Positions 1 through 53,021 of a stretch of 53,024 nt of DNA are shown here, piece after piece; the first letter of the stretch is position 1; each line of letters opens with the position of its first letter. Both the position numbers and the translations under genes were made by a program. The notes beneath the pieces were generated by a model. That model searched no databases. It was not told where the DNA came from and saw only the letters and a program-made list of their open reading frames with translations. This DNA is from a phage, in sequence record PZ386956.1. The stretch is one strand, 5' to 3'.

Positions 1-1449
1 ATGAATCTTGACTTTCACCTGCATGACAGACAAGGTGCCGCTCTGCGGTCTCAGGCAACTGAGATACTGTACGGAGGTGCCGCTGGTGGTGGTAAGTCTC
101 ACCTTATGCGTGTAATGTCAATTATCATGTGCTGCATGATACCTGACTTGCAGATTTACCTTTTCCGCCGAAACTATAACGACCTTACGGCTAACCACAT
201 GGTTGGTCCCACAAGTTATCCTGCCTTGCTGGATGGTATGTGCAAAGCTGGCAAGTGCAAGATTAACTACTCGAGCAACACTATCAAATTCTGGAATGGT
301 GCGAACATCAAGCTCTGTCACCTCCAGTATGAAAAAGATATTTATACCTACCAGGGTGCTGAGATTCACGTTCTGCTGATGGATGAGCTTACTCACTTCA
401 CAGAAACGATGTACCGCTTCTTGCGTAACCGTGTCCGACTCGGTGCTCTCAAAGTCCCTGAGAACTTTTTCCGGCCACTGCCCCTTATCTTTTGTGGGTC
501 AAACCCCGGCGGTGTTGGTCACAACTGGGTTAAGCGTACTTTCGTAACTGCTGCTCCTCCGATGAAAATCGTTAAGCAGGAAAAACGCGAAGGTGGTATG
601 GCGCGTCAGTACATACCAGCTAAGATGACTGATAACCCTACGTTGATGGAAAACGACCCTGACTACGGCGACCGTCTTGAAGGTCTTGGTGACCCGGCAC
701 TTGTTGCCGCGATGAAAGAAGGTGACTGGGATATTGTTGCAGGTGGTGCACTCGATGATGTGTGGTCAACCAAGTGCATTCTGCCTCGTATGCGTATTCC
801 GAAAGGCTGGACTATCGAACGTTCTCTCGACTGGGGTTCTACTCACCCGTTCTCTGTTGGTATCTGGGCTATTGCAAATGGCGCTTCGCTTACAGACGAC
901 GAAGGCAATGAGTACTTTATTCCGCGTGGTTCCATTATACGTATAGCTGAATGGTATGGGTGCTCTGAAAAAGAAGCTAACAGGGGTATTAAACTTTCTG
1001 CTGCCGAAGTTGCTCAAGGCGTTATCCGCTTACAGGAAAATCTGCAAGCTGGTGGCTGGATTCAAAGCAACGTTAATCCTGGTCCGGCTGATAGTCAAAT
1101 TTATGCGTGCAAGGAAAAAGACGTTGAGACTATCGCGAAGAAAATGGAAGACGAAGGCGTAACCTGGGTCAAGGCCGACAAGTCACAAGGTTCGAGAATA
1201 AATGGCTTAGAGCTATTCCGTCAGCTTCTGAAAAATGTTAAGATGGACGAAACGGAAAAGCCGGGCATTTATTTCATGGAAAACTGTCCAGCAGCCATAA
1301 ACACGTTGCCGGTTCTGCCGCGTGACAAGAACAACACGGAAGATGTCGACACGAACTCTGAAGACCACGTATACGATGATTGTCGTTACATGGTGTTGCG
1401 TGGCATCAACCGTTATACTACCAAGCTCAAAATAAATATGGGACGGTAA
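1..1449 (+). CDS. terL: terminase large subunit
   Basis: 482 aa; N-terminal Walker A GGAAGGGKS; ATPase then nuclease-like layout; portal gene starts 2 nt after its stop. Confidence 0.92.
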   Translation: MNLDFHLHDRQGAALRSQATEILYGGAAGGGKSHLMRVMSIIMCCMIPDLQIYLFRRNYNDLTANHMVGPTSYPALLDGMCKAGKCKINYSSNTIKFWNGANIKLCHLQYEKDIYTYQGAEIHVLLMDELTHFTETMYRFLRNRVRLGALKVPENFFRPLPLIFCGSNPGGVGHNWVKRTFVTAAPPMKIVKQEKREGGMARQYIPAKMTDNPTLMENDPDYGDRLEGLGDPALVAAMKEGDWDIVAGGALDDVWSTKCILPRMRIPKGWTIERSLDWGSTHPFSVGIWAIANGASLTDDEGNEYFIPRGSIIRIAEWYGCSEKEANRGIKLSAAEVAQGVIRLQENLQAGGWIQSNVNPGPADSQIYACKEKDVETIAKKMEDEGVTWVKADKSQGSRINGLELFRQLLKNVKMDETEKPGIYFMENCPAAINTLPVLPRDKNNTEDVDTNSEDHVYDDCRYMVLRGINRYTTKLKINMGR

Positions 1450-44568: not shown

Positions 44569-44902
44569 TCCGGTAGACTAGTTATGGAATAAATAAACCG
44601 TGTTTTTCGAATTAAGTGCACTTAAGCTACTGTTTTATATACTCTTTTCTTTTTACATGAATTAGTAAATATATGGAGCCCTTTATAAAGAAAAAGGGGG
44701 GTAATAAGGGGATACAAGTACCGGATAAAAGGGGTATATATTTATTTATTATTATTATTATTATTATATATTATTAATTATATTAGAAGTAATAAAAACA
44801 GCTACTTAGAGGCGTCTATATGTATGATCCGGTTTATCTCTTTATTAATATCAGAACCGGATGAAAAAAAATTACGCCGGCGAAAAAAAATAAAAAACCG
44901 GA
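44569..44902. promoter_or_regulatory. putative replication-origin region: ACCGGA iteron-like repeats, AT tract, A-tracts
   Basis: Five ACCGGA/TCCGGT copies (44569, 44720, 44828, 44856, 44897), 8-bp IR ATCCGGTT/AACCGGAT, palindrome CGCCGGCG, two A8 runs; no ORF. Confidence 0.35.
44735..44786. repeat. pure A/T tract with (ATT)n microsatellite
   Basis: About 52 nt of only A/T including TTATT(ATT)6-like run. Confidence 0.7.
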
Positions 44903-45026
44903 CTGATAAATAATTCGTAGGCATGTCTAAAGCCAGGCGTGGCAAGCTTCGGTGATATTTACTATGTTATTGTATGTTAGTGTGCGTTATAATATATTTA
45001 TTATTCAACAGATGAGTTGTGCAACT

Positions 45027-45533
45027 ATGGATCCAATTGTAAAAGTATTTGAAGGTAAAAATATCACATTTTCATCAATTAAGAGGGGTACCAAAATGGC
45101 ATCCCTCATTGTTGTTAAAGGAAGCGATTTAGCTAAAGCGCTGGGCTACAGCTACGCGGAAAAACTTTATAAAAGGTTAGACAGCGATTATAAAATTACT
45201 GATGACAAAGGAGCAGTATGGGTAACTGAACCTGGTATTTATCAGGCTATATTCGGTTCGCAGCTTGAATCAGCTAAAGCATTTCAGCGCTGGGCATACG
45301 AAGAAGTATTTCCCACCATTCGTGGGAATGGTTATTACGTTACACCAGAGCTTCAACCAGTGCTGGATCTACTGTCTGATGAAATAGACTTACTACGTGC
45401 ATATGCTACAGCTGACTGCCACGGAAGAGCAAGGCTTAAGTCAAGAATTATGACGATATGGAAAAAACAAGTAGAAAATGGTAACTCTTTGGACCGCGTA
45501 GTCCAGATTTTAAAAGGAAACAGTGCATGGTAA
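45027..45533 (+). CDS. Bro-N domain protein
   Basis: Bro-N signature (VFEGKNITF...SLIVVKGSDLAKALGY...GIYQAIFGSQLESAKAFQRWAYEEVFPTIRGNGYY); start could also be 44952 or 45012. Confidence 0.65.
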   Translation: MDPIVKVFEGKNITFSSIKRGTKMASLIVVKGSDLAKALGYSYAEKLYKRLDSDYKITDDKGAVWVTEPGIYQAIFGSQLESAKAFQRWAYEEVFPTIRGNGYYVTPELQPVLDLLSDEIDLLRAYATADCHGRARLKSRIMTIWKKQVENGNSLDRVVQILKGNSAW

Positions 45534-45958
45534 ATATTCGTGTTATTGGCCAGAACTTTGAGAGAAAGATGGCTAAAAAATTCAACGAATCTTTTGGACT
45601 TGACTGCCAGCGTAACCTGCAGCAATCAATAAATGGCGGGGATGACTTGCTTGGTATACCGTTTTTCAGCGTTGAACTGAAGAAGCACAAGACCAAGTCT
45701 ATCGGAACATGGTGGAGACAGTGTGCGGCATCGGCAAAGGCTCAGAACAAGATGCCGGTACTGATATACGAACTACCAAGAAAACAGCCTACCGTGGTGA
45801 TGAATAAGGCTGATGTGATTGACTGCTTTCCAAGTGGCACGACTTTTAACGAGGCATCGAACCGCCTCTTTGTGGGTCTAGTAGAATTAACATGGGAACA
45901 ATTTTGCCGGGTCTACAACTATTACGTTGCGCCCGGCACTCAATATCACGTCAATTAA
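45527..45958 (+). CDS. VRR-NUC-like PD-(D/E)xK nuclease (putative)
   Basis: 143 aa; D...E-x-K arrangement (GDDLLGIPFFSVELKK) typical of small phage nucleases/resolvases; overlaps Bro-N stop. Confidence 0.45.
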   Translation: MVNIRVIGQNFERKMAKKFNESFGLDCQRNLQQSINGGDDLLGIPFFSVELKKHKTKSIGTWWRQCAASAKAQNKMPVLIYELPRKQPTVVMNKADVIDCFPSGTTFNEASNRLFVGLVELTWEQFCRVYNYYVAPGTQYHVN

Positions 45959-46140
45959 TCTTGTTTCAGCTCGTCACAAATAACACGCTGATTTTTGGCA
46001 GGGATAATACCAAGATTCAGTAAGGTGTATGGACTATCGGCGGCACATTGTTCAACGGTAGTCCATTCAGGTTTGGATTCAACAATTTTGTAACTACAAT
46101 CATGAGTAGCCACACATGTTGCCAGGATTAAGCCAATCAC
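45955..46140 (-). CDS. small hypothetical protein (hydrophobic N-terminus, possible lipoprotein)
   Basis: 61-aa ORF, GTG start overlapping upstream stop (GTGA); N-terminus MIGLILATC. Confidence 0.4.
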   Translation of the reverse strand: MIGLILATCVATHDCSYKIVESKPEWTTVEQCAADSPYTLLNLGIIPAKNQRVICDELKQD

Positions 46141-46316
46141 AAGTAATCGCCTTCAACCAGGAACTCAAACAATTGGTTGTAGACGTTGCAACCTTTAGCG
46201 AAAGAGCTTTCAGCAGGTTTACCATCGCGGACGATCATCATATACTCACCGCCATGGATGTCCACCCAGTATTGCATGCCACCTTTGACCGGGTTACGTT
46301 GTAAGAATTTAAACAT
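46137..46316 (-). CDS. small hypothetical protein (59 aa, not in ORF track)
   Basis: ATG with AAGGAG RBS 6 nt upstream, TAATG-coupled to upstream gene and GTGA-coupled to downstream gene; reads MFKFLQRNPVKGGMQYWVDIHGGEYMMIVRDGKPAESSFAKGCNVYNQLFEFLVEGDYL. Confidence 0.45.
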   Translation of the reverse strand: MFKFLQRNPVKGGMQYWVDIHGGEYMMIVRDGKPAESSFAKGCNVYNQLFEFLVEGDYL

Positions 46317-46561
46317 TATTTGCTCCTTATTCCAAGTTTATTCAATAGCCAAATTGTCATGTCAACCCAGGTTAACGGTACAGTTTTCGGGGGTTGATAA
46401 TTCCAGCAGCTTGCAGTTCTTTGTATTTCTGCTTGGCGCCGCTCCGCTTCGCGTAATACCGCATCGTCAGAAGTGCCGGCAGAAAAAAGATCGGTAACAC
46501 CAGATAAATCGCGTTGATTAACACGTCGAGCAATGTCATATAAATCATCCTTAGAAAACAT
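46316..46561 (-). CDS. hypothetical protein
   Basis: 81-aa ORF in early leftward cluster. Confidence 0.45.
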   Translation of the reverse strand: MFSKDDLYDIARRVNQRDLSGVTDLFSAGTSDDAVLREAERRQAEIQRTASCWNYQPPKTVPLTWVDMTIWLLNKLGIRSK

Positions 46562-46700
46562 AAGCCAATACCATAAGAATTATCAGAAAGATCCCAACCA
46601 GCTTCCTCATGGCCCGACCTTCAGCATATGCAGGATTCACAACAGAATACTCAACAACATGTTTACAGCGGACCATAAGGCCTCCACTTGTGGGTTAATT

Positions 46701-46737
46701 CAATCATGAGGACTTTTGGCAAATCCTCATTGTTGAA
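46701..46737 (-). repeat. conserved intergenic hairpin, copy 1
   Basis: Plus strand CAATCATGAGGACTTTTGGCAAATCCTCATTGTTGAA, immediately 3' of the stop of gene 46738..46941. Confidence 0.55.
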
Positions 46738-46941
46738 TCACTCCATCATTACCTGAACTATTATTATACACTCTTTATTGAAGCGGGTAAATACCTTTCC
46801 TCCATTGGTGCGTTTAGCCCCAGATTTTAGAGCTGACTGGCACCAGACATGCCACTCCTCAACTGTCAAGAATTTTTGCTCAGCTTTGGGTGGTAGTCCA
46901 TTGGCAAGGTCTACCGTAGTAAATTTGACCAGCGGCATCAC
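46738..46941 (-). CDS. hypothetical protein
   Basis: 67-aa ORF, ATGA-coupled to upstream gene. Confidence 0.4.
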   Translation of the reverse strand: MMPLVKFTTVDLANGLPPKAEQKFLTVEEWHVWCQSALKSGAKRTNGGKVFTRFNKECIIIVQVMME

Positions 46942-47327
46942 TTAACCTCAAATTTTGACTCGTCATATTCCGGATCAGTCACGTCCCGGGTAGCACAATT
47001 TTTGATTGCCTCCCAGTAACGTTGGGCGTCATCGCCATCGACATAAACTGTCCAGTGGCCGTAACCACCTTCAAATCTGTCCCAGGCTTGTTCCCAGACT
47101 TTGCCATCTTCCAGCTTGTACCAAGTTGGACGACTGTCAAACTCGCGGATTGGATGGTACCCCATCAAAGGATTCATCAGGTCAATAATGTCTTCCCGAC
47201 TAATCTCCTGGTTCTCCCACAACACCGTCATGAATTGCTCAAACTTGAAGGCGTTTGGCAGAACTTTGATGACTTCACCATCACGATATACGGTATAGGT
47301 ACCATCTTCGCATTTTGCACTGTACAT
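46938..47327 (-). CDS. hypothetical protein
   Basis: Start ATG 47327 (AGGAG RBS, MYSAKCEDG...); track first Met at 47360 lies inside hairpin copy 2. Confidence 0.5.
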   Translation of the reverse strand: MYSAKCEDGTYTVYRDGEVIKVLPNAFKFEQFMTVLWENQEISREDIIDLMNPLMGYHPIREFDSRPTWYKLEDGKVWEQAWDRFEGGYGHWTVYVDGDDAQRYWEAIKNCATRDVTDPEYDESKFEVK

Positions 47328-47353
47328 GTTTCTCTCTCCTATTGATATAATTT

Positions 47354-47394
47354 CAATCATGAACTATCACAACTTTGGATAGTTCATTGTTGAA
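47354..47394 (-). repeat. conserved intergenic hairpin, copy 2 (compensatory stem)
   Basis: CAATCATGA-ACTATC-acaacttt-GGATAGTT-CATTGTTGAA: same flanks as copies 1 and 3 but a different, still complementary, stem. Confidence 0.55.
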
Positions 47395-47395
47395 A

Positions 47396-47569
47396 CTATA
47401 CTAACTTTGTTGCGATCTGAATTGTCAGCCGGAAATCTTCCATCAAGTTATCAAACTCTTTGGAACCGCCAACCGCATCAGATATTTGATCTTTCACGAT
47501 TTGGGCATTTGATTCCAGTAATTCAATCAGGTGCGCCAATTCGTCTTCAGTCAATTTCAGATCTTTCAT
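47396..47569 (-). CDS. hypothetical protein
   Basis: Start ATG 47569 overlapping upstream stop (ATGA); 57 aa. Confidence 0.4.
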   Translation of the reverse strand: MKDLKLTEDELAHLIELLESNAQIVKDQISDAVGGSKEFDNLMEDFRLTIQIATKLV

Positions 47570-47823
47570 AATGCATCCACCCAAGCCATAACTTTTGCCA
47601 GTCTTACAACGTCTTCATGGTCCCGATCGCCATCAGAAAATTCGCTGGCGATGATACCCATAATTGACGCCAGATTCATGTTGATGATGTACGAGTGTTC
47701 CCGCACTTCATCAATTCCTGAATCTATCACCAATTCCGCAAATTCCTGCGAACCTTCATCCCATTCAGCCCAATACTGCTCAGCATAAAAGTCCAGTTCT
47801 TTTTTCATCTCAATATCAGTCAT
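47566..47823 (-). CDS. hypothetical acidic protein
   Basis: 85-aa ORF, acidic. Confidence 0.45.
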   Translation of the reverse strand: MTDIEMKKELDFYAEQYWAEWDEGSQEFAELVIDSGIDEVREHSYIINMNLASIMGIIASEFSDGDRDHEDVVRLAKVMAWVDAL

Positions 47824-47828
47824 TTTGA

Positions 47829-47987
47829 TTACTCCTCAGAACCTGAAAATTTGTCGTCAATGGTTTCAACGATATAATCAAGAGTTGAAGTGTGAGAACT
47901 ATCAGAAAAAGTGCCCATCTTCTCTAACTCAATCATCATATCCCGCAAAGCCATCGCCTGGTCTTTGGTCAGTTTGATTTTAAGCAT
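47829..47987 (-). CDS. hypothetical protein
   Basis: Start ATG 47987 (GGAG RBS, MLKIKLTKDQ...); 52 aa; track start 48029 lies inside hairpin GATGGCACT-acttg-AGTGCCATC. Confidence 0.35.
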   Translation of the reverse strand: MLKIKLTKDQAMALRDMMIELEKMGTFSDSSHTSTLDYIVETIDDKFSGSEE

Positions 47988-48051
47988 GTTTCTCTCCTGT
48001 TGATTGTGAATAATTTCAATTGATGGCACTACTTGAGTGCCATCTCAAAAA

Positions 48052-48621
48052 TTACTCTTCAGTTTCTTGTGCTTCAGTTTCAGGTTTTTCTTCAGTCTCA
48101 GGTTTTTCGCCTGTTACTGATTTGCCCTCAGTCACTTTACCAGATTTTACATCATTACGGTAATATGACATATAGGATTGGACAACACGTTTTGCCCTAA
48201 TATCATCCGCTTCCATCCCACAGGCTTTCATGGCATCAGCCAGCGCCAATTTGGAATCTTCTTTGTCCATCAAGTTGTAATCCTTGAATACTGCATAGCA
48301 TGTATCCTTGGTTGACGGACCGGATGAAGTTTTGCGGGTGCCACCTGCAGATGCACGTGATGCCGCAACTTTGACCTCTTCAACTTCCAGTTGGTTAAGC
48401 TCATCAAACAAGGCTTTCACCAGCACTTCTTTGGAGTCTTTGACAGTTACAGAACTTTCATCATTAAGGGACTTAATCATCTTAATGATCTGGTTATTGG
48501 CAAAGTACTGAAGACTATCCATCTGCACTACAATAGTCCCAAGACTTTCAGTAGTCAGACCAGATTTTACAGACTCAACAGAAAAGGCGGAAGTCAGGTA
48601 AACATAGTTGATAGTAGTCAT
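48052..48621 (-). CDS. hypothetical protein with acidic PETEE-repeat tail
   Basis: Start ATG 48621 (MTTINYVYL...); 189 aa; C-terminus EKPETEEKPETEAQETEE. Confidence 0.5.
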   Translation of the reverse strand: MTTINYVYLTSAFSVESVKSGLTTESLGTIVVQMDSLQYFANNQIIKMIKSLNDESSVTVKDSKEVLVKALFDELNQLEVEEVKVAASRASAGGTRKTSSGPSTKDTCYAVFKDYNLMDKEDSKLALADAMKACGMEADDIRAKRVVQSYMSYYRNDVKSGKVTEGKSVTGEKPETEEKPETEAQETEE

Positions 48622-48677
48622 TGATGTATCCTCATTGATAGAATTTTTGATAAGTGTCAATCCTTGACAAGTAAGTC

Positions 48678-48715
48678 CAATCATGAGGACTTTTACCAAG
48701 TCCCCATTGTTGGAA
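48678..48715 (-). repeat. conserved intergenic hairpin, copy 3
   Basis: CAATCATGAGGACTTTTACCAAGTCCCCATTGTTGGAA immediately 3' of the stop of gene 48717..48890. Confidence 0.55.
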
Positions 48716-48716
48716 A

Positions 48717-48890
48717 TTACTTCAATTTATCCAGAATTGATTGGAGTAACTTGACCCTCACTTCCTGGTCTTTGACATCCCTTCCACTTTCCCTGTCATA
48801 TTCCAACAGGTCACTTTCCATAAATAAGGTTGTGTCCAGTTGGTCAACCAATAATTCCAGTTCTTCTTGGGACAATTCTAAAACTTTCAT
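48717..48890 (-). CDS. hypothetical protein
   Basis: Start ATG 48890 (AGGAG RBS, MKVLELSQEE...); 57 aa, acidic helical. Confidence 0.4.
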   Translation of the reverse strand: MKVLELSQEELELLVDQLDTTLFMESDLLEYDRESGRDVKDQEVRVKLLQSILDKLK

Positions 48891-48894
48891 CTTA

Positions 48895-49044
48895 TTACTC
48901 CTGATATTTAACAACTTGGGATTGGATAAAGTCAACACAATCTTCCACATCCATTGACTCAAAGTCTGGAACTGGACCAGTATTTATATTGACACACCAA
49001 AGCCCTTCATTGGTATCATACCAAAGTGTGTAGTTGTCCTTCAT
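48895..49044 (-). CDS. hypothetical protein
   Basis: Start ATG 49044 (AGAGGTG RBS, MKDNYTLWYD...); 49 aa; track GTG start 49098 is an alternative. Confidence 0.35.
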   Translation of the reverse strand: MKDNYTLWYDTNEGLWCVNINTGPVPDFESMDVEDCVDFIQSQVVKYQE

Positions 49045-49428
49045 AATAGTCACCTCTTGTATTAGTTTCCAGTTGTGACTACTGTTACCAATAGTCACTG
49101 GTTGAAACTATTACTAGTGTTACTATCAACAAGAAACATGTTACCAAATTGTTAAAGAGCAAAAGGTACCATTGACATCTACCAGATGTACCTGTTGACT
49201 GGTTAAGTACTACCTACCCAAATTAAACCATACCAATACCCTCCAGACCAGTTGACTGGTCACTCAGTCATCACATTCAATAAATATATAATAGTCCAAT
49301 CCCTCTTGATTGTACACCTTATATTTGTAAGTTTATGCAAGTTTTTAGAAATGATAATCACTTGCGGTTGAGAGTGGTTCTCATATACAATTGATATAGT
49401 TTCACATGTAATTACTCAACTCAAAATG

Positions 49429-49483
49429 GTCGGCAGGGGTTATAATAACATAGGGGTGCCACTCGAAGGAGCCGGCGAAATTA
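49429..49483. repeat. 55-nt imperfect direct repeat, copy A
   Basis: GGTCGGCAGGGGTTATAATAACATAGGGGTGCCACTCGAAGGAGCCGGCGAAATT; about 65-70% identical to copy B. Confidence 0.45.
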
Positions 49484-49604
49484 TTTCTAAAAATATAATT
49501 TCAATCTGAATTATAGACGCTTTGTACTATAACGGCCGAAGTAGTTCACCCGGTAATTGTATCAATCACAATAGTTACCAGAGTAATCATTTCAATTGAA
49601 ATAG

Positions 49605-49659
49605 GTGCGGCGGGGGGTAATTTCGCAAGGGTGCTACCTGCCAGGAGCCAGCAAAATTT
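49605..49659. repeat. 55-nt imperfect direct repeat, copy B
   Basis: GGTGCGGCGGGGGGTAATTTCGCAAGGGTGCTACCTGCCAGGAGCCAGCAAAATT followed by T-rich run; shares GGGTGC.AC...AGGAGCC.GC.AAATT core with copy A. Confidence 0.45.
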
Positions 49660-49879
49660 TTTATTTTTTCTCTATTTTCTCCTTATCAGGACCAATCATC
49701 ATCAGATTGATACAACAGGAGCTAACCTTTTGCCTAACACAATAATAAGTGAAGCCCCTCTAAAATTTTTTTATATTTTTCGGAAATTGTGTAGACACTC
49801 ACTAAAAAGTGGTGTACTTTCTCTCCTCCACGCGCTATCATTAATGTGAATCATCAAACGGCCTCACGGTCTCCTACTT

Positions 49880-50377
49880 GTGGGTAACATTATGAAAATT
49901 GTTCAATTAGAGCCATATCCACCTCAATTGGCTATCGTTTGTAGTGAAAAAGAGCACGAAGAGCTCCAAAAACTGATGGATTTGCCTGATTTTGGCAACT
50001 GGAATGACCGGGAAACGCGTAATGCATCTACCTTTACGTTCACTCGCGTTAACTATCCGTACCTGTTAATCGTCGTCGAACTGTATCACCCGGACGACCT
50101 GAAGTACAACACCATTTCCCACGAAGGCATTCACGTAATGTCGTCGCTGATGAACTATGTAGGGCTTAAATACGACCCAGAAAACGATGAATGGTACGCA
50201 TATCAGCACGATTTCATCGTAAATGCCATTTGTAAGGCCCATGACGAGTACCTGGAGCGCAAAAAAGCGCCAAAACATAAGCCAAAAATCGAAACAGGTA
50301 ACCATCCTGCAATACTGCCACAAGACGTAATGAACTCGCTTTTGACTGACACTACTGGGGACTTTTTAGGTGATTAA
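49880..50377 (+). CDS. HExxH-motif protein (putative Zn-metallopeptidase-like)
   Basis: 165-aa ORF (GTG start; ATG 4 codons later); contains HEGIH in a helix-like context (TISHEGIHVMSSLMNYVG). Confidence 0.5.
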   Translation: MGNIMKIVQLEPYPPQLAIVCSEKEHEELQKLMDLPDFGNWNDRETRNASTFTFTRVNYPYLLIVVELYHPDDLKYNTISHEGIHVMSSLMNYVGLKYDPENDEWYAYQHDFIVNAICKAHDEYLERKKAPKHKPKIETGNHPAILPQDVMNSLLTDTTGDFLGD

Positions 50378-52730: not shown

Positions 52731-53021
52731 ATGGCAAAACCGAAAAAAACCCGTGAGGCAACAGAAGAATTGTTGGCCACGATGCGACGTATCCAGCTGG
52801 ACCCGTTGGAAGTTATGCAACGGGCTATCATACTTGCTGAACGTGAAGACGACTACAAAGCAATGATGGATGGTGCACTGGGCGTTATGCCGTACATGTA
52901 TCCTAAGCTGAAAGAATCCGTTGTCAAAGCAGACATCGACCAAAACCTGTCCGGTAATGGCGTCAACCTGAACATTACAATAGGCGACCAGAAAGTGGTA
53001 GATACTACTGGGGAAGAGTAA
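52731..53021 (+). CDS. terminase small subunit (putative)
   Basis: 96-aa basic/helical protein whose stop is 3 nt from the window end; terL begins at nt 1, so it sits directly upstream of terL if the genome is circular or permuted. Confidence 0.4.
   Translation: MAKPKKTREATEELLATMRRIQLDPLEVMQRAIILAEREDDYKAMMDGALGVMPYMYPKLKESVVKADIDQNLSGNGVNLNITIGDQKVVDTTGEE

What the first reader, a model, noticed from the sequence alone, without database searches (positions are those of the whole stretch)
49429..49659. Two ~55-nt G-tract-containing direct repeats in the 780-bp divergent early region
Copies at 49429..49483 and 49605..49659 share the core GGGTGC.AC...AGGAGCC.GC.AAATT with GGGG runs, about 65-70% identity, about 120 nt apart. 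They sit in a long ORF-free gap between the leftward early cluster and the rightward HExxH/DHFR/kinase block. Copy B is followed by a T-rich run, and a TTTCAATTGA motif precedes it and recurs at 48014 and 49391. They could be paired regulatory RNA genes, binding sites for a phage regulator, or G-quadruplex-forming elements.
Basis: seen in the sequence. Interest (0 to 1): 0.45.

Follow-up and report, generated by a model that had tools for sequence, protein, structure and literature searches.

The report
Phage genome-end cutting sites, duplicated
The two repeats are most likely tandem copies of the DNA signal where this Salmonella/E. coli phage cuts its replicated DNA to make the ends of the packaged chromosome, not RNA genes or G-quadruplexes; this is inferred from close relatives whose DNA ends were mapped by sequencing, and no end data exist for this phage itself.

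Summary
The repeat is real. It is about 92 nt long, 69.5% identical with gaps, and far above chance. Its 175-177 bp period holds in all 13 related genomes examined.

The window is a complete Rosemountvirus-like myophage genome. Three relatives have sequence-mapped ends (fHy-Eco03, vB_SalM_Sz, AEV23). In each, the right boundary of a 3.7-4.3 kb direct terminal repeat (DTR) falls inside copy B, between CC and RRC. The left end falls in the same short core, GCC|GGCG.

The window equivalents are:
- L: 44878|44879
- copy A: 49473|49474
- copy B: 49649|49650

The published PhageTerm table for fHy-Eco03 also shows the second-strongest read-start peaks on both strands. They sit on the two bases flanking the centre of copy A's palindrome, a position I had predicted from the motif alignment. 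So in that phage copy A is cut blunt and used as both a left and a right end. L is a left end only and B a right end only.

No Rfam hit, no conserved RNA fold, no canonical G4 motif and no conserved ORF were found.

Best reading: both copies are end-cleavage modules, probably for terminase. This is inferred by homology for this phage. The authors of the source papers did not discuss the three-site layout.

The parts
49396..49486 (+). Repeat copy A, extended unit: ATAGT box, G-box, GGGGTGC, GGAGCC|GGCGAAATT
   Evidence: Gapped alignment with copy B is 69.5% identical over 95 columns, 0/300 shuffles reach its score. Conserved in 13 genomes.
49571..49662 (+). Repeat copy B, extended unit: ATAGT box, G-box GGGGGGTAAT, GGGTGC, GGAGCC|AGCAAAATT
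   Evidence: Same alignment. It lies 176 bp from copy A, and the period is 175-177 in all relatives.
49468..49482 (.). Copy-A core GGAGCC|GGCGAAATT, a palindrome GCC|GGC with predicted blunt cut at 49473|49474. Predicted to serve as both a left and a right end.
   Evidence: |GGCG is present in all 10 genomes found without requiring it. In fHy-Eco03 the homologous position carries plus-strand (T 0.40, p 2e-26) and minus-strand (T 0.59, p 4e-149) read-start peaks on adjacent bases.
49644..49658 (.). Copy-B core GGAGCC|AGCAAAATT, predicted cut at 49649|49650. This is the predicted right boundary of the long terminal repeat (right end only).
   Evidence: The deposited or published DTR right boundary falls at the homologous CC|RRC in vB_SalM_Sz and fHy-Eco03 and AEV23. 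fHy-Eco03 has a minus-strand peak here with T 0.68, p 1e-195.
44872..44892 (.). Left-terminus core TTACGCC|GGCGAAAAAAAAT, predicted cut at 44878|44879 (left end only).
   Evidence: The records of Sz and fHy-Eco03 start at the homologous |GGCG. In AEV23 the phage sequence starts there, next to foreign DNA. |GGCG is invariant in 9 of 9 relatives although the flanks vary. fHy-Eco03 has a plus-strand peak here with T 0.66, p 1.5e-114.
44879..49649 (.). Predicted long direct terminal repeat, 4,771 bp. It holds the PDDEXK/RusA-like gene, a Bro-N/Ant gene and the leftward cluster of small early genes. GC is 0.41 against 0.46 for the genome.
   Evidence: Defined by homology of both boundaries with the relatives. 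The same rule gives 4263 (Sz), 3699 (fHy) and 3915 (S144 and AEV23), matching the reported values.
49474..49649 (.). 176-bp segment between the copy-A and copy-B cuts. It would be a short nested terminal repeat for molecules that start at A and end at B.
   Evidence: Length is fixed at 175-177 bp in 13 genomes. Ends at both A and B are seen in fHy-Eco03. The S144 gel fits a left end here.
49433..49459 (+). G-boxes of copy A (CAGGGGTTATAAT ... AGGGGTGC), about 37 and 20 nt left of the cut.
   Evidence: Conserved blocks in the multi-phage alignment. GGGGKTAWW occurs 6 times in the window, 3 of them at L, A and B.
49610..49636 (+). G-boxes of copy B (GCGGGGGGTAAT ... AGGGTGC), about 38 and 18 nt left of the cut.
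44693..44790 (+). G-boxes (GGGGGGTAAT, GGGGATAC, GGGGTATAT) followed by a roughly 60-nt A/T-only (TTA)n tract, 90-185 nt left of the left terminus.
   Evidence: Partly conserved in relatives. Annotated as repeat_region in phages brunost and birk. Its role was not tested.
49395..49403 (+). WATAGTYWC box of copy A (TATAGTTTC).
   Evidence: 5 of the 9 matches in the whole window lie within 49045-49578.
49570..49578 (+). WATAGTYWC box of copy B (AATAGTTAC).
   Evidence: It sits at the equivalent position, 175 bp from the copy-A box.
1..1449 (+). Large terminase subunit gene, the candidate nuclease.
   Evidence: PHROG 979 'terminase large subunit' at E 1e-38. Pfam Terminase_6N is weak, 19.7 bits against a cutoff of 22.
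52731..53021 (+). 96-aa ORF directly upstream of the large terminase gene, a candidate small terminase by position only.
   Evidence: No Pfam or PDB match. It matches PHROG 38712, of unknown function. Annotated as putative TerS in phage S144.

Best explanation
The two repeats are tandem copies, 176 bp apart, of a non-coding module at whose 3' end the phage's packaging nuclease cuts concatemeric DNA to make virion chromosome ends. The nuclease is most likely terminase (TerL, 1-1449).

Three sites share the core (G/C)CC|GGC followed by an A/T tract:
- L at 44878|44879, a left end.
- Copy B at 49649|49650, a right end. L to B defines a direct terminal repeat of about 4.8 kb that holds the small leftward early genes.
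- Copy A at 49473|49474, a complete palindrome GCC|GGCG. It is cut blunt and can serve as both a right and a left end, so some molecules would have shorter or 176-bp repeats.

What is shown and what is inferred:
- Shown in relatives: positions and strands of the ends.
- Inferred for this phage: the same positions, by homology.
- Inferred: which enzyme cuts, and the roles assigned to the boxes.
For: 1. The window is a whole genome 98% identical to Salmonella phage brunost, genus Rosemountvirus.

2. Records deposited with terminal repeats end inside copy B and start in the same core. Sz reads ...CAGGAGCC|AGCGG and ACGCT|GGCGAAAA. fHy-Eco03 reads ...AAGCCCC|GGCAAAT and TTGCC|GGCGCAAA. The fHy-Eco03 ends came from PhageTerm plus a restriction digest.

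3. AEV23 has a published PhageTerm DTR of 3,915 bp. That equals the distance from |GGCGG to GCGCC| in the AEV23 record itself and in S144. In the AEV23 record the phage sequence begins at that |GGCGG, next to foreign DNA.

4. The fHy-Eco03 PhageTerm table lists these peaks:
- plus strand: L (T 0.66) and the first base right of the copy-A cut (T 0.40, p 2e-26)
- minus strand: copy B (T 0.68) and the last base left of the copy-A cut (T 0.59, p 4e-149)
- every other peak has T <= 0.10
I had derived the copy-A cut position from the motif alignment before reading this table.

5. S144 restriction mapping puts a physical end in this same gap and excludes cohesive ends. The reported bands match fragments computed from A and B.

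6. Conservation: |GGCG is invariant at L (9/9) and at A (10/10 found without requiring it), and never present at B (0/13). (G/C)CC| is present at B in 13/13.

7. The A-B spacing is 175-177 bp in 13 genomes, while the rest of the gap has indels.

8. In relatives whose flanks have diverged, the A/B stretch is better conserved than the rest of the gap. PA13076 is 97.1% identical over 341 nt against 87.8% over 851 nt.
Against: - There are no read-level or end-mapping data for this phage. Everything is transferred by homology, from relatives 69-98% identical in this region.
- The short core is not unique. Position-weight scans built from other phages' sites give similar scores to several unrelated positions, and the window's own copy B is not in the top six. 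Other determinants must exist.
- Local alignment between the L region and the A/B units is not above chance beyond 10-mers.
- In fHy-Eco03, L has GCC| but no minus-strand peak, and B has |GGCA but no plus-strand peak. The three-base half-site rule is therefore incomplete.
- vB_SenM-1, a Rosemountvirus, was reported as 'COS' by PhageTerm. The S144 authors proposed short repeats. The end structure is described inconsistently across papers.
- PhageTerm peaks cannot tell alternative packaging ends from cleavage at A after packaging or during DNA preparation.
- The nuclease has not been identified. A virion-associated PDDEXK nuclease gene lies just inside the left end.
Confidence: 0.7

Rival explanations
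1. The units are duplicated early-promoter cassettes. Each would hold an A/T-rich UP-like tract and TAGAC/-35-like and -10-like boxes, like the tandem A1-A3 promoters near the T7 left end. The genome ends would lie next to them only incidentally.
For: L, A and a third degenerate site at about 49752-49781 are each followed by an A/T tract, then roughly 10 nt, then TAGAC(A/G). A conserved TAGACA-N17-TACTTT lies upstream of the first rightward gene. Copy A of the window and copy B of S144 contain a perfect TATAAT inside the G-box. The S144 record annotates predicted promoters there.
Against: The consensus scan finds no plus-strand sigma-70-like site in 48800-50000. The G-box '-10' is not conserved; it reads TAAACG, TAATCG or TAATTG in other lineages. 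No -35 lies at the right spacing. This reading does not explain ends mapping to the nucleotide at the cores in three phages, or the both-strand peaks at A. It is not exclusive of the main explanation.
Confidence: 0.15
2. The units are iterons of the phage replication origin, with the adjacent A/T tracts as the unwinding element.
For: Short boxes (WATAGTYWC and GTAAT-like) cluster here, with 5 of 9 genome matches in 530 bp. A/T tracts are adjacent. The cumulative GC-skew minimum falls at 49-50 kb. The site lies between divergent transcription units.
Against: The skew switch coincides with the switch in gene orientation, so it is not independent evidence. There are only two large units. No initiator gene is adjacent. 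This reading does not explain the mapped ends.
Confidence: 0.06
3. Each copy is a small regulatory RNA gene.
For: The copies lie in a long non-coding gap. Copy B is followed by a T-run. The sequence is conserved.
Against: No Rfam match at E<=1. Fold z-scores range from +0.5 to -0.5. There are zero consensus pairs on either strand. No hairpin abuts the T-run, and no conserved promoter was found.
Confidence: 0.04
4. The G-runs form G-quadruplexes that act on replication or transcription.
For: G4-G6 runs occur in an AT-rich context, on the same strand at all three sites.
Against: No four-tract G3+ motif with loops up to 12 exists anywhere in the window. There is only one G2 motif, in copy B. The number and spacing of G-runs vary between lineages.
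Confidence: 0.02
5. The units are a T5-like injection-stop or first-step-transfer signal at the inner edge of the terminal repeat.
For: As in T5 (my own knowledge of that phage), the repeat holds a block of small low-GC early genes, and repeated sequences sit at its inner edge.
Against: There is no evidence of two-step DNA entry in this group, no similarity to T5 was tested, and the mapped ends are not explained.
Confidence: 0.03

Closest known systems
T7/T3-type exact-end packaging with direct terminal repeats (concatemer-junction processing by terminase). Basis: my own knowledge.
   Same: Ends are non-permuted, sequence-defined and blunt-type, with a direct terminal repeat. Short repeated sequences sit beside the repeat boundary. 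Host RNA polymerase promoters lie next to the end. The A-B interval of 176 bp is the size of a T7-group repeat (160-230 bp).
   Different: The main repeat here is 3.6-4.8 kb. Both boundaries and an internal site share one short palindromic core, which is not the case for the T3 ends quoted in PMC3896407. One site is used in both directions. The phage is a myovirus, and its TerL's nearest relatives outside the clade (below 60% identity) are siphoviruses.
T5-type long direct terminal repeat (the PhageTerm class 'DTR (long), T5')
   Same: PhageTerm placed fHy-Eco03 in this class. The repeat is several kilobases long and carries many small early genes with low GC.
   Different: No T5 homology was tested. 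The repeat here is 4-5 kb rather than about 10 kb. Strong secondary ends lie 176 bp inside the right boundary.
Phage N4-like genomes with one left end and several discrete right ends
   Same: There is more than one discrete right end close together. PMC3896407 reports two reverse peaks for the N4-like phage IME11.
   Different: In IME11 the peaks are 2 bp apart. Here they are 176 bp apart, at duplicated recognition modules, and the inner site is also a left end.
Lambda cos (cosN flanked by cosB repeats). Basis: my own knowledge.
   Same: A partly two-fold-symmetric cleavage core is flanked on one side by repeated boxes that could position terminase. A single cut at copy A would create both a right and a left end.
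   Different: Cohesive ends were excluded for S144 by heat and cool tests. The plus and minus peaks at A are on adjacent bases, meaning a blunt cut. No IHF consensus occurs in the units.

Membership tests
Terminal-repeat boundary / packaging cleavage site of a DTR phage | Virion DNA has fixed, non-permuted ends with a direct terminal repeat | not testable with these tools
   Shown for the relatives fHy-Eco03 (PhageTerm plus ScaI digest), Sz (record) and AEV23. There are no reads for this phage.
Terminal-repeat boundary / packaging cleavage site of a DTR phage | The mapped ends coincide with the element | tested here: met
   The right boundary lies inside copy B in Sz, fHy-Eco03 and AEV23. Both-strand peaks sit at the centre of copy A in fHy-Eco03. 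The mapping to the window is by alignment.
Terminal-repeat boundary / packaging cleavage site of a DTR phage | The sites are conserved at both boundaries in related genomes | tested here: met
   |GGCG at L in 9/9. (G/C)CC| at B in 13/13. Period of 175-177 bp in 13/13.
Terminal-repeat boundary / packaging cleavage site of a DTR phage | The core motif alone specifies the sites in the genome | tested here: not met
   Weight-matrix scans give comparable scores at unrelated positions. Extra determinants are needed.
Terminal-repeat boundary / packaging cleavage site of a DTR phage | Cleavage is carried out by the phage terminase | not testable with these tools
   A TerL gene is present. The candidate TerS is assigned by position only. 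No biochemistry is available.
Small RNA gene | Conserved secondary structure, covariation, or membership of a described RNA family | tested here: not met
Small RNA gene | Promoter and intrinsic terminator bracketing the unit | tested here: not met
   No plus-strand promoter-like or terminator-like site in the units. No hairpin next to the T-run.
G-quadruplex-forming element | Four G-tracts of at least 3 G with short loops | tested here: not met
   None in the region or in the window.
Lambda-like cos site | Staggered nicks giving cohesive ends | tested here: not met
   The plus and minus peaks at copy A are on adjacent bases. The S144 heat and cool test excluded cohesive ends. One relative was called 'COS' by PhageTerm. 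That is the output I would expect if the adjacent copy-A peaks were its top peaks, but this is my inference and was not checked.
Iteron-type replication origin | Three or more regularly spaced iterons next to an A/T-rich unwinding element and an initiator gene | tested here: inconclusive
   Short boxes cluster here and A/T tracts are present. There are only two large units and no adjacent initiator. GC skew is confounded with gene orientation.
Tandem sigma-70 early promoters | -35 and -10 hexamers at 16-18 bp spacing, conserved across relatives | tested here: inconclusive
   The scan finds none on the plus strand within the units. TATAAT in the G-box is not conserved. The promoters annotated in S144 are software predictions.

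The most novel reading that the evidence does not exclude
The region is a three-site end-generating system with a directional code. |GGCG plus an A-rich tract specifies a left end (L and A). A G-box module plus (G/C)CC| specifies a right end (A and B). The only complete palindrome, copy A, is cut blunt and used in both directions.

One phage stock would then contain chromosomes with nested terminal repeats of about 4.8 kb, 4.6 kb, 176 bp or zero. Packaging series might restart at A after a cut there.

This reading would reconcile three conflicting published descriptions of this phage group: 'long DTR', 'short DTR' and 'COS'.
Probability: 0.35. Interest if true: 0.7.

Novelty: new variant of a known kind. 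Interest (0 to 1): 0.55.

Why it matters
How phages with long exact terminal repeats choose and duplicate their ends is poorly understood outside T7. This case offers a compact 176-bp tandem module with a simple palindromic core, three sites with different directionality, and single-base differences between a site used as a left end (GGCG) and one that is not (GGCA). Mutagenesis, in-vitro cleavage assays and long-read end mapping can test all of this directly.

It also has practical value. About 60 deposited genomes of this group of candidate therapy and biocontrol phages are mostly recorded without their terminal repeats and with arbitrary start points. The motif lets their true ends be predicted. 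It may also explain why different laboratories reported different packaging types.

Tried and rejected
- RNA: Rfam at gathering and E-value thresholds, tRNA/tmRNA scan, single-sequence RNA and DNA folds, and RNAalifold on 14 copies. All were negative.
- G4 regular expressions: negative.
- TTTCAATTGA motif: not above chance.
- IHF consensus: none in the units.
- Local alignment of the left-junction region against the units: only 10-mers, not significant.
- Weight matrices of the core: not specific enough to single out the sites.
- Search for a third full unit upstream or downstream: only the A/T tract recurs, at 49762-49781.
- ORF conservation across the gap: none over the units.
- Distant TerL relatives in IMG/VR (35-56% identity): no comparable motif seen.
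- Metagenome pattern scan: three more relatives with the same 176-bp period, but none of the contigs ends at a cut site.
- PDB sequence searches for TerS and TerL: uninformative.
- Minor PhageTerm peaks in fHy-Eco03 (41280 plus, 51453 minus; T <= 0.10): no motif at those positions.
- Supplements of the AEV23 and vB_SenM-1 papers: no PhageTerm tables are held.
- Record start points of LPSEYT, PEA2-3 and AEV23 lie 7-12 nt from predicted cuts. That is suggestive only.

Full report
**What is in the sequence**

At the stated coordinates ungapped identity is 29/55. No other 55-nt pair in the same gap exceeds 29, and the background is 14.6 +/- 3.3.

With a few gaps the repeat is longer than reported. 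About 49396-49486 aligns with 49571-49662 at 69.5% identity over 95 columns. The local-alignment score is 34 against 15.9 +/- 2.3 for shuffles, and 0 of 300 shuffles reach it. The offset is 176 bp.

The gap between the last leftward ORF and the first rightward gene (ATG at 49892) is 793 bp. No ORF over the repeats is conserved among relatives.

**What the window is**

The window is a complete phage genome that starts at the large terminase gene. It is 98% identical in this region to Salmonella phage brunost, genus Rosemountvirus. About 60 related records exist, including Loughboroughvirus, Erwinia phage SOI901 and Escherichia phage fHy-Eco03.

**The RNA and G4 readings fail**

- There is no Rfam match at gathering threshold or at E<=1, and no tRNA.
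- Folds of either strand are no better than shuffles.
- RNAalifold on 14 copies from 7 phages predicts zero pairs on either strand.
- No four-tract G3+ motif exists anywhere in the window.

**The lead: terminal repeats**

Two relatives are deposited with direct terminal repeats. In both, the right boundary of the repeat lies inside copy B and the left end lies in a similar short core:

| Phage | Right boundary | Left end |
|---|---|---|
| Sz | ...CAGGAGCC\|AGCGGAATTTT | ...ACGCT\|GGCGAAAAAAA |
| fHy-Eco03 | ...AAGCCCC\|GGCAAATTTT | ...TTGCC\|GGCGCAAAAAG |

The fHy-Eco03 ends came from PhageTerm and were checked with a ScaI digest.

A third phage, AEV23 (Loughboroughvirus), has a published PhageTerm repeat of 3,915 bp. 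The distance from |GGCGG to GCGCC| is exactly 3,915 bp in the near-identical S144 and in the AEV23 record itself. There the phage sequence begins at that |GGCGG, right next to foreign IS5-containing DNA.

[quoted passage not shown] That is this intergenic region. The same work excluded cohesive ends.

In the window the homologous positions are:
- L: 44878|44879 (TTACGCC|GGCGAAAAAAAAT)
- copy A: 49473|49474 (GGAGCC|GGCGAAATT)
- copy B: 49649|49650 (GGAGCC|AGCAAAATT)

The predicted long repeat, 44879-49649, is 4,771 bp. It has GC 0.41 against 0.46 for the genome. Compared with Sz it carries an extra Bro-N/Ant gene.

**Comparative anatomy**

I aligned the whole gap and the left junction from nine or more genomes. 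These included an IMG/VR contig with 83% TerL identity and three metagenome contigs.

The A-to-B distance is 175-177 bp in all 13 genomes, although other parts of the gap carry indels.

| Site | Left of cut | Right of cut |
|---|---|---|
| L | GCC, GCT, CCC or CTC (varies) | GGCG in 9/9 |
| A | GCC in 11, CCC in 1, CTC in 1 | GGCG in 10/10 found without requiring it |
| B | (G/C)CC in 13/13 | never GGCG; GGCA, AGCA, AGCG or GACG in 13/13 |

A G-box (GGGG(G)TAAT-like) and a GGTG box lie about 37 and 18 nt left of the cut at A and B. At L the G-boxes lie about 135-185 nt to the left, before an A/T-only tract. An ATAGT-type box sits at the same place in both units, and 5 of its 9 matches in the genome lie in this gap.

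From this I predicted the following:
- A is a complete palindromic site.
- L carries only the left-end half.
- B carries only the right-end half.

**The test**

The supplement of the fHy-Eco03 paper prints the PhageTerm peak table. Subtracting 47,594 from the assembly coordinates gives record coordinates.

| Strand | Assembly position | Record position | T | p | Site |
|---|---|---|---|---|---|
| + | 47595 | 1 | 0.66 | 1.5e-114 | L |
| + | 51118 | 3524 | 0.40 | 2.1e-26 | first base right of the copy-A cut |
| - | 51293 | 3699 | 0.68 | 1e-195 | copy B |
| - | 51117 | 3523 | 0.59 | 3.9e-149 | last base left of the copy-A cut |

All other peaks have T <= 0.10 and no motif at their positions. So in fHy-Eco03 there is a blunt double-strand end at the centre of copy A's palindrome, used in both directions. 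L gives only left ends and B gives only right ends. The authors reported only the top pair, as a 3,699-bp repeat.

This also fits the S144 gel. The missing 12,604-bp SspI fragment was replaced by two bands between 5 and 7 kb. I computed these fragments:
- 40,302 to B: 5,661 bp (to A: 5,486 bp)
- A to 52,905: 7,117 bp
- L to 52,905: 10,857 bp
- PacI to B: 8,052 bp, matching their '7-10 kb' band
- PacI to SspI: 476 bp, matching their '500 bp' band

One Rosemountvirus was reported as 'COS' by PhageTerm. That is the output I would expect if the adjacent copy-A peaks were its top pair. This is my inference and I could not check it.

**Interpretation**

The part they share (G-boxes, GGTG, (G/C)CC|) lies on the packaged side of the two right-end cuts and is missing at L. 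I therefore read it as the signal for the right-end (termination) cut. |GGCG followed by an A-rich tract (L and A) correlates with left-end use, and B is followed by T-tracts instead.

The enzyme is most likely terminase. TerL is at 1-1449, and a 96-aa ORF upstream is a small-subunit candidate by position only. A virion-associated PDDEXK nuclease encoded just inside the left end cannot be excluded.

**Limits**

- Nothing was measured on this phage.
- The short core is not unique in the genome.
- The L region and the units share only 10-mers.
- The three-base half-site rule is incomplete. fHy-Eco03's L has GCC| without a minus-strand peak, and its B has |GGCA without a plus-strand peak.
- The peak table cannot say whether the copy-A ends are alternative packaging starts and stops or arise by cleavage after packaging. 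Rough algebra on the T values fits both.

**Rival readings**

Promoter cassettes and origin iterons explain some local features. These include the A/T tracts followed by TAGAC, clustered short boxes and the GC-skew minimum. Neither explains the mapped ends. The two are not mutually exclusive with the main reading.

**Comparison with known systems and novelty**

The kind of element is known: sequence-specific end formation in phages with exact direct terminal repeats. T7/T3 have short repeats and T5 has long ones. N4-like phages have several right ends.

What differs here:
- One short palindromic core is shared by both boundaries and by an internal site.
- The right-end module is duplicated in tandem at a fixed 176-bp distance.
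- The internal site is used in both directions.

I searched the library for papers on these genera combined with terminal repeats or PhageTerm and read the matching passages only. None of those passages mentions the motif, the tandem module or the secondary ends. I therefore rate this a new variant of a known kind, of moderate to good interest.

Noticed in passing
window 44693-44790: Three G-boxes (GGGGGGTAAT, GGGGATAC, GGGGTATAT) are followed by a roughly 60-nt tract of A and T only, with (TTA)n-like repeats. The tract lies just left of the predicted left end. Part of it is annotated as repeat_region in phages brunost and birk. Its role is unknown.
   Followed up: partly
window 44952-45533: A Bro-N/anti-repressor-like gene sits immediately inside the predicted left end. 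It is absent at this place in Sz and fHy-Eco03. It replaces the TTTACA-N17-TACAAT promoter those phages have there, and makes this phage's predicted repeat about 500 bp longer.
   Followed up: partly
window 45527-45958: The first conserved gene inside the left end encodes a PDDEXK nuclease (Pfam PF24608; PHROG 'RusA-like resolvase'). Its fHy-Eco03 homologue was found in virions by mass spectrometry. It is an alternative candidate for the end-cutting enzyme.
   Followed up: no
window 49040-49135: Imperfect inverted repeats (49056-49084 against 49089-49117) and three WATAGTYWC boxes overlap the start of the first leftward gene. This could be an operator for an early regulator.
   Followed up: no
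window 49752-49830: A third, degenerate copy of the core plus A/T tract (AAGCCCC TCTAAAATTTTTTTATATTTTTC) precedes a strongly conserved TAGACA-N17-TACTTT promoter-like block upstream of the first rightward gene. A minus-strand mini-ORF (49734-49841, MIA..KVHHFL) looks conserved, but probably only because it overlaps that block.
   Followed up: partly
window 46470-46490: GTGCC|GGCAGAAAAAA, a core-like sequence, is present inside a leftward early gene in every relative examined. I could not tell whether this reflects coding constraint or an extra site.
   Followed up: no
relatives S144 and fHy-Eco03 (literature): Virion DNA of both phages resists every restriction enzyme whose site contains G or C, and is cut only by AT-only cutters or ScaI (PMC7432712, PMC8145870). 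An unidentified base modification is likely. The window carries DHFR and kinase genes next to the end, and S144 annotates a thymidylate synthase and a dCMP deaminase.
   Followed up: no
L010 1-1744 (AEV23 record OR810919, reverse complement of its 3' end): The AEV23 GenBank record is chimeric. About 1.7 kb of foreign DNA (an IS5 transposase, a methyltransferase and REP-like repeats) is joined exactly at the phage's left physical end.
   Followed up: partly
L013/L014 (LPSEYT record MH181876): The record is opened 7 nt to the right of the predicted copy-B cut (…GGAGCCAGCAAAA | TTTTTT…). It also carries a homing-endonuclease gene near the left junction.
   Followed up: partly
window 49892-50377: The first rightward gene (161 aa, with a HEGIH motif) has no Pfam hit. 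S144 annotates its homologue as a putative Ku/Gam-like end-binding protein, and fHy-Eco03 found its homologue in virions. I did not test whether it binds DNA ends.
   Followed up: no
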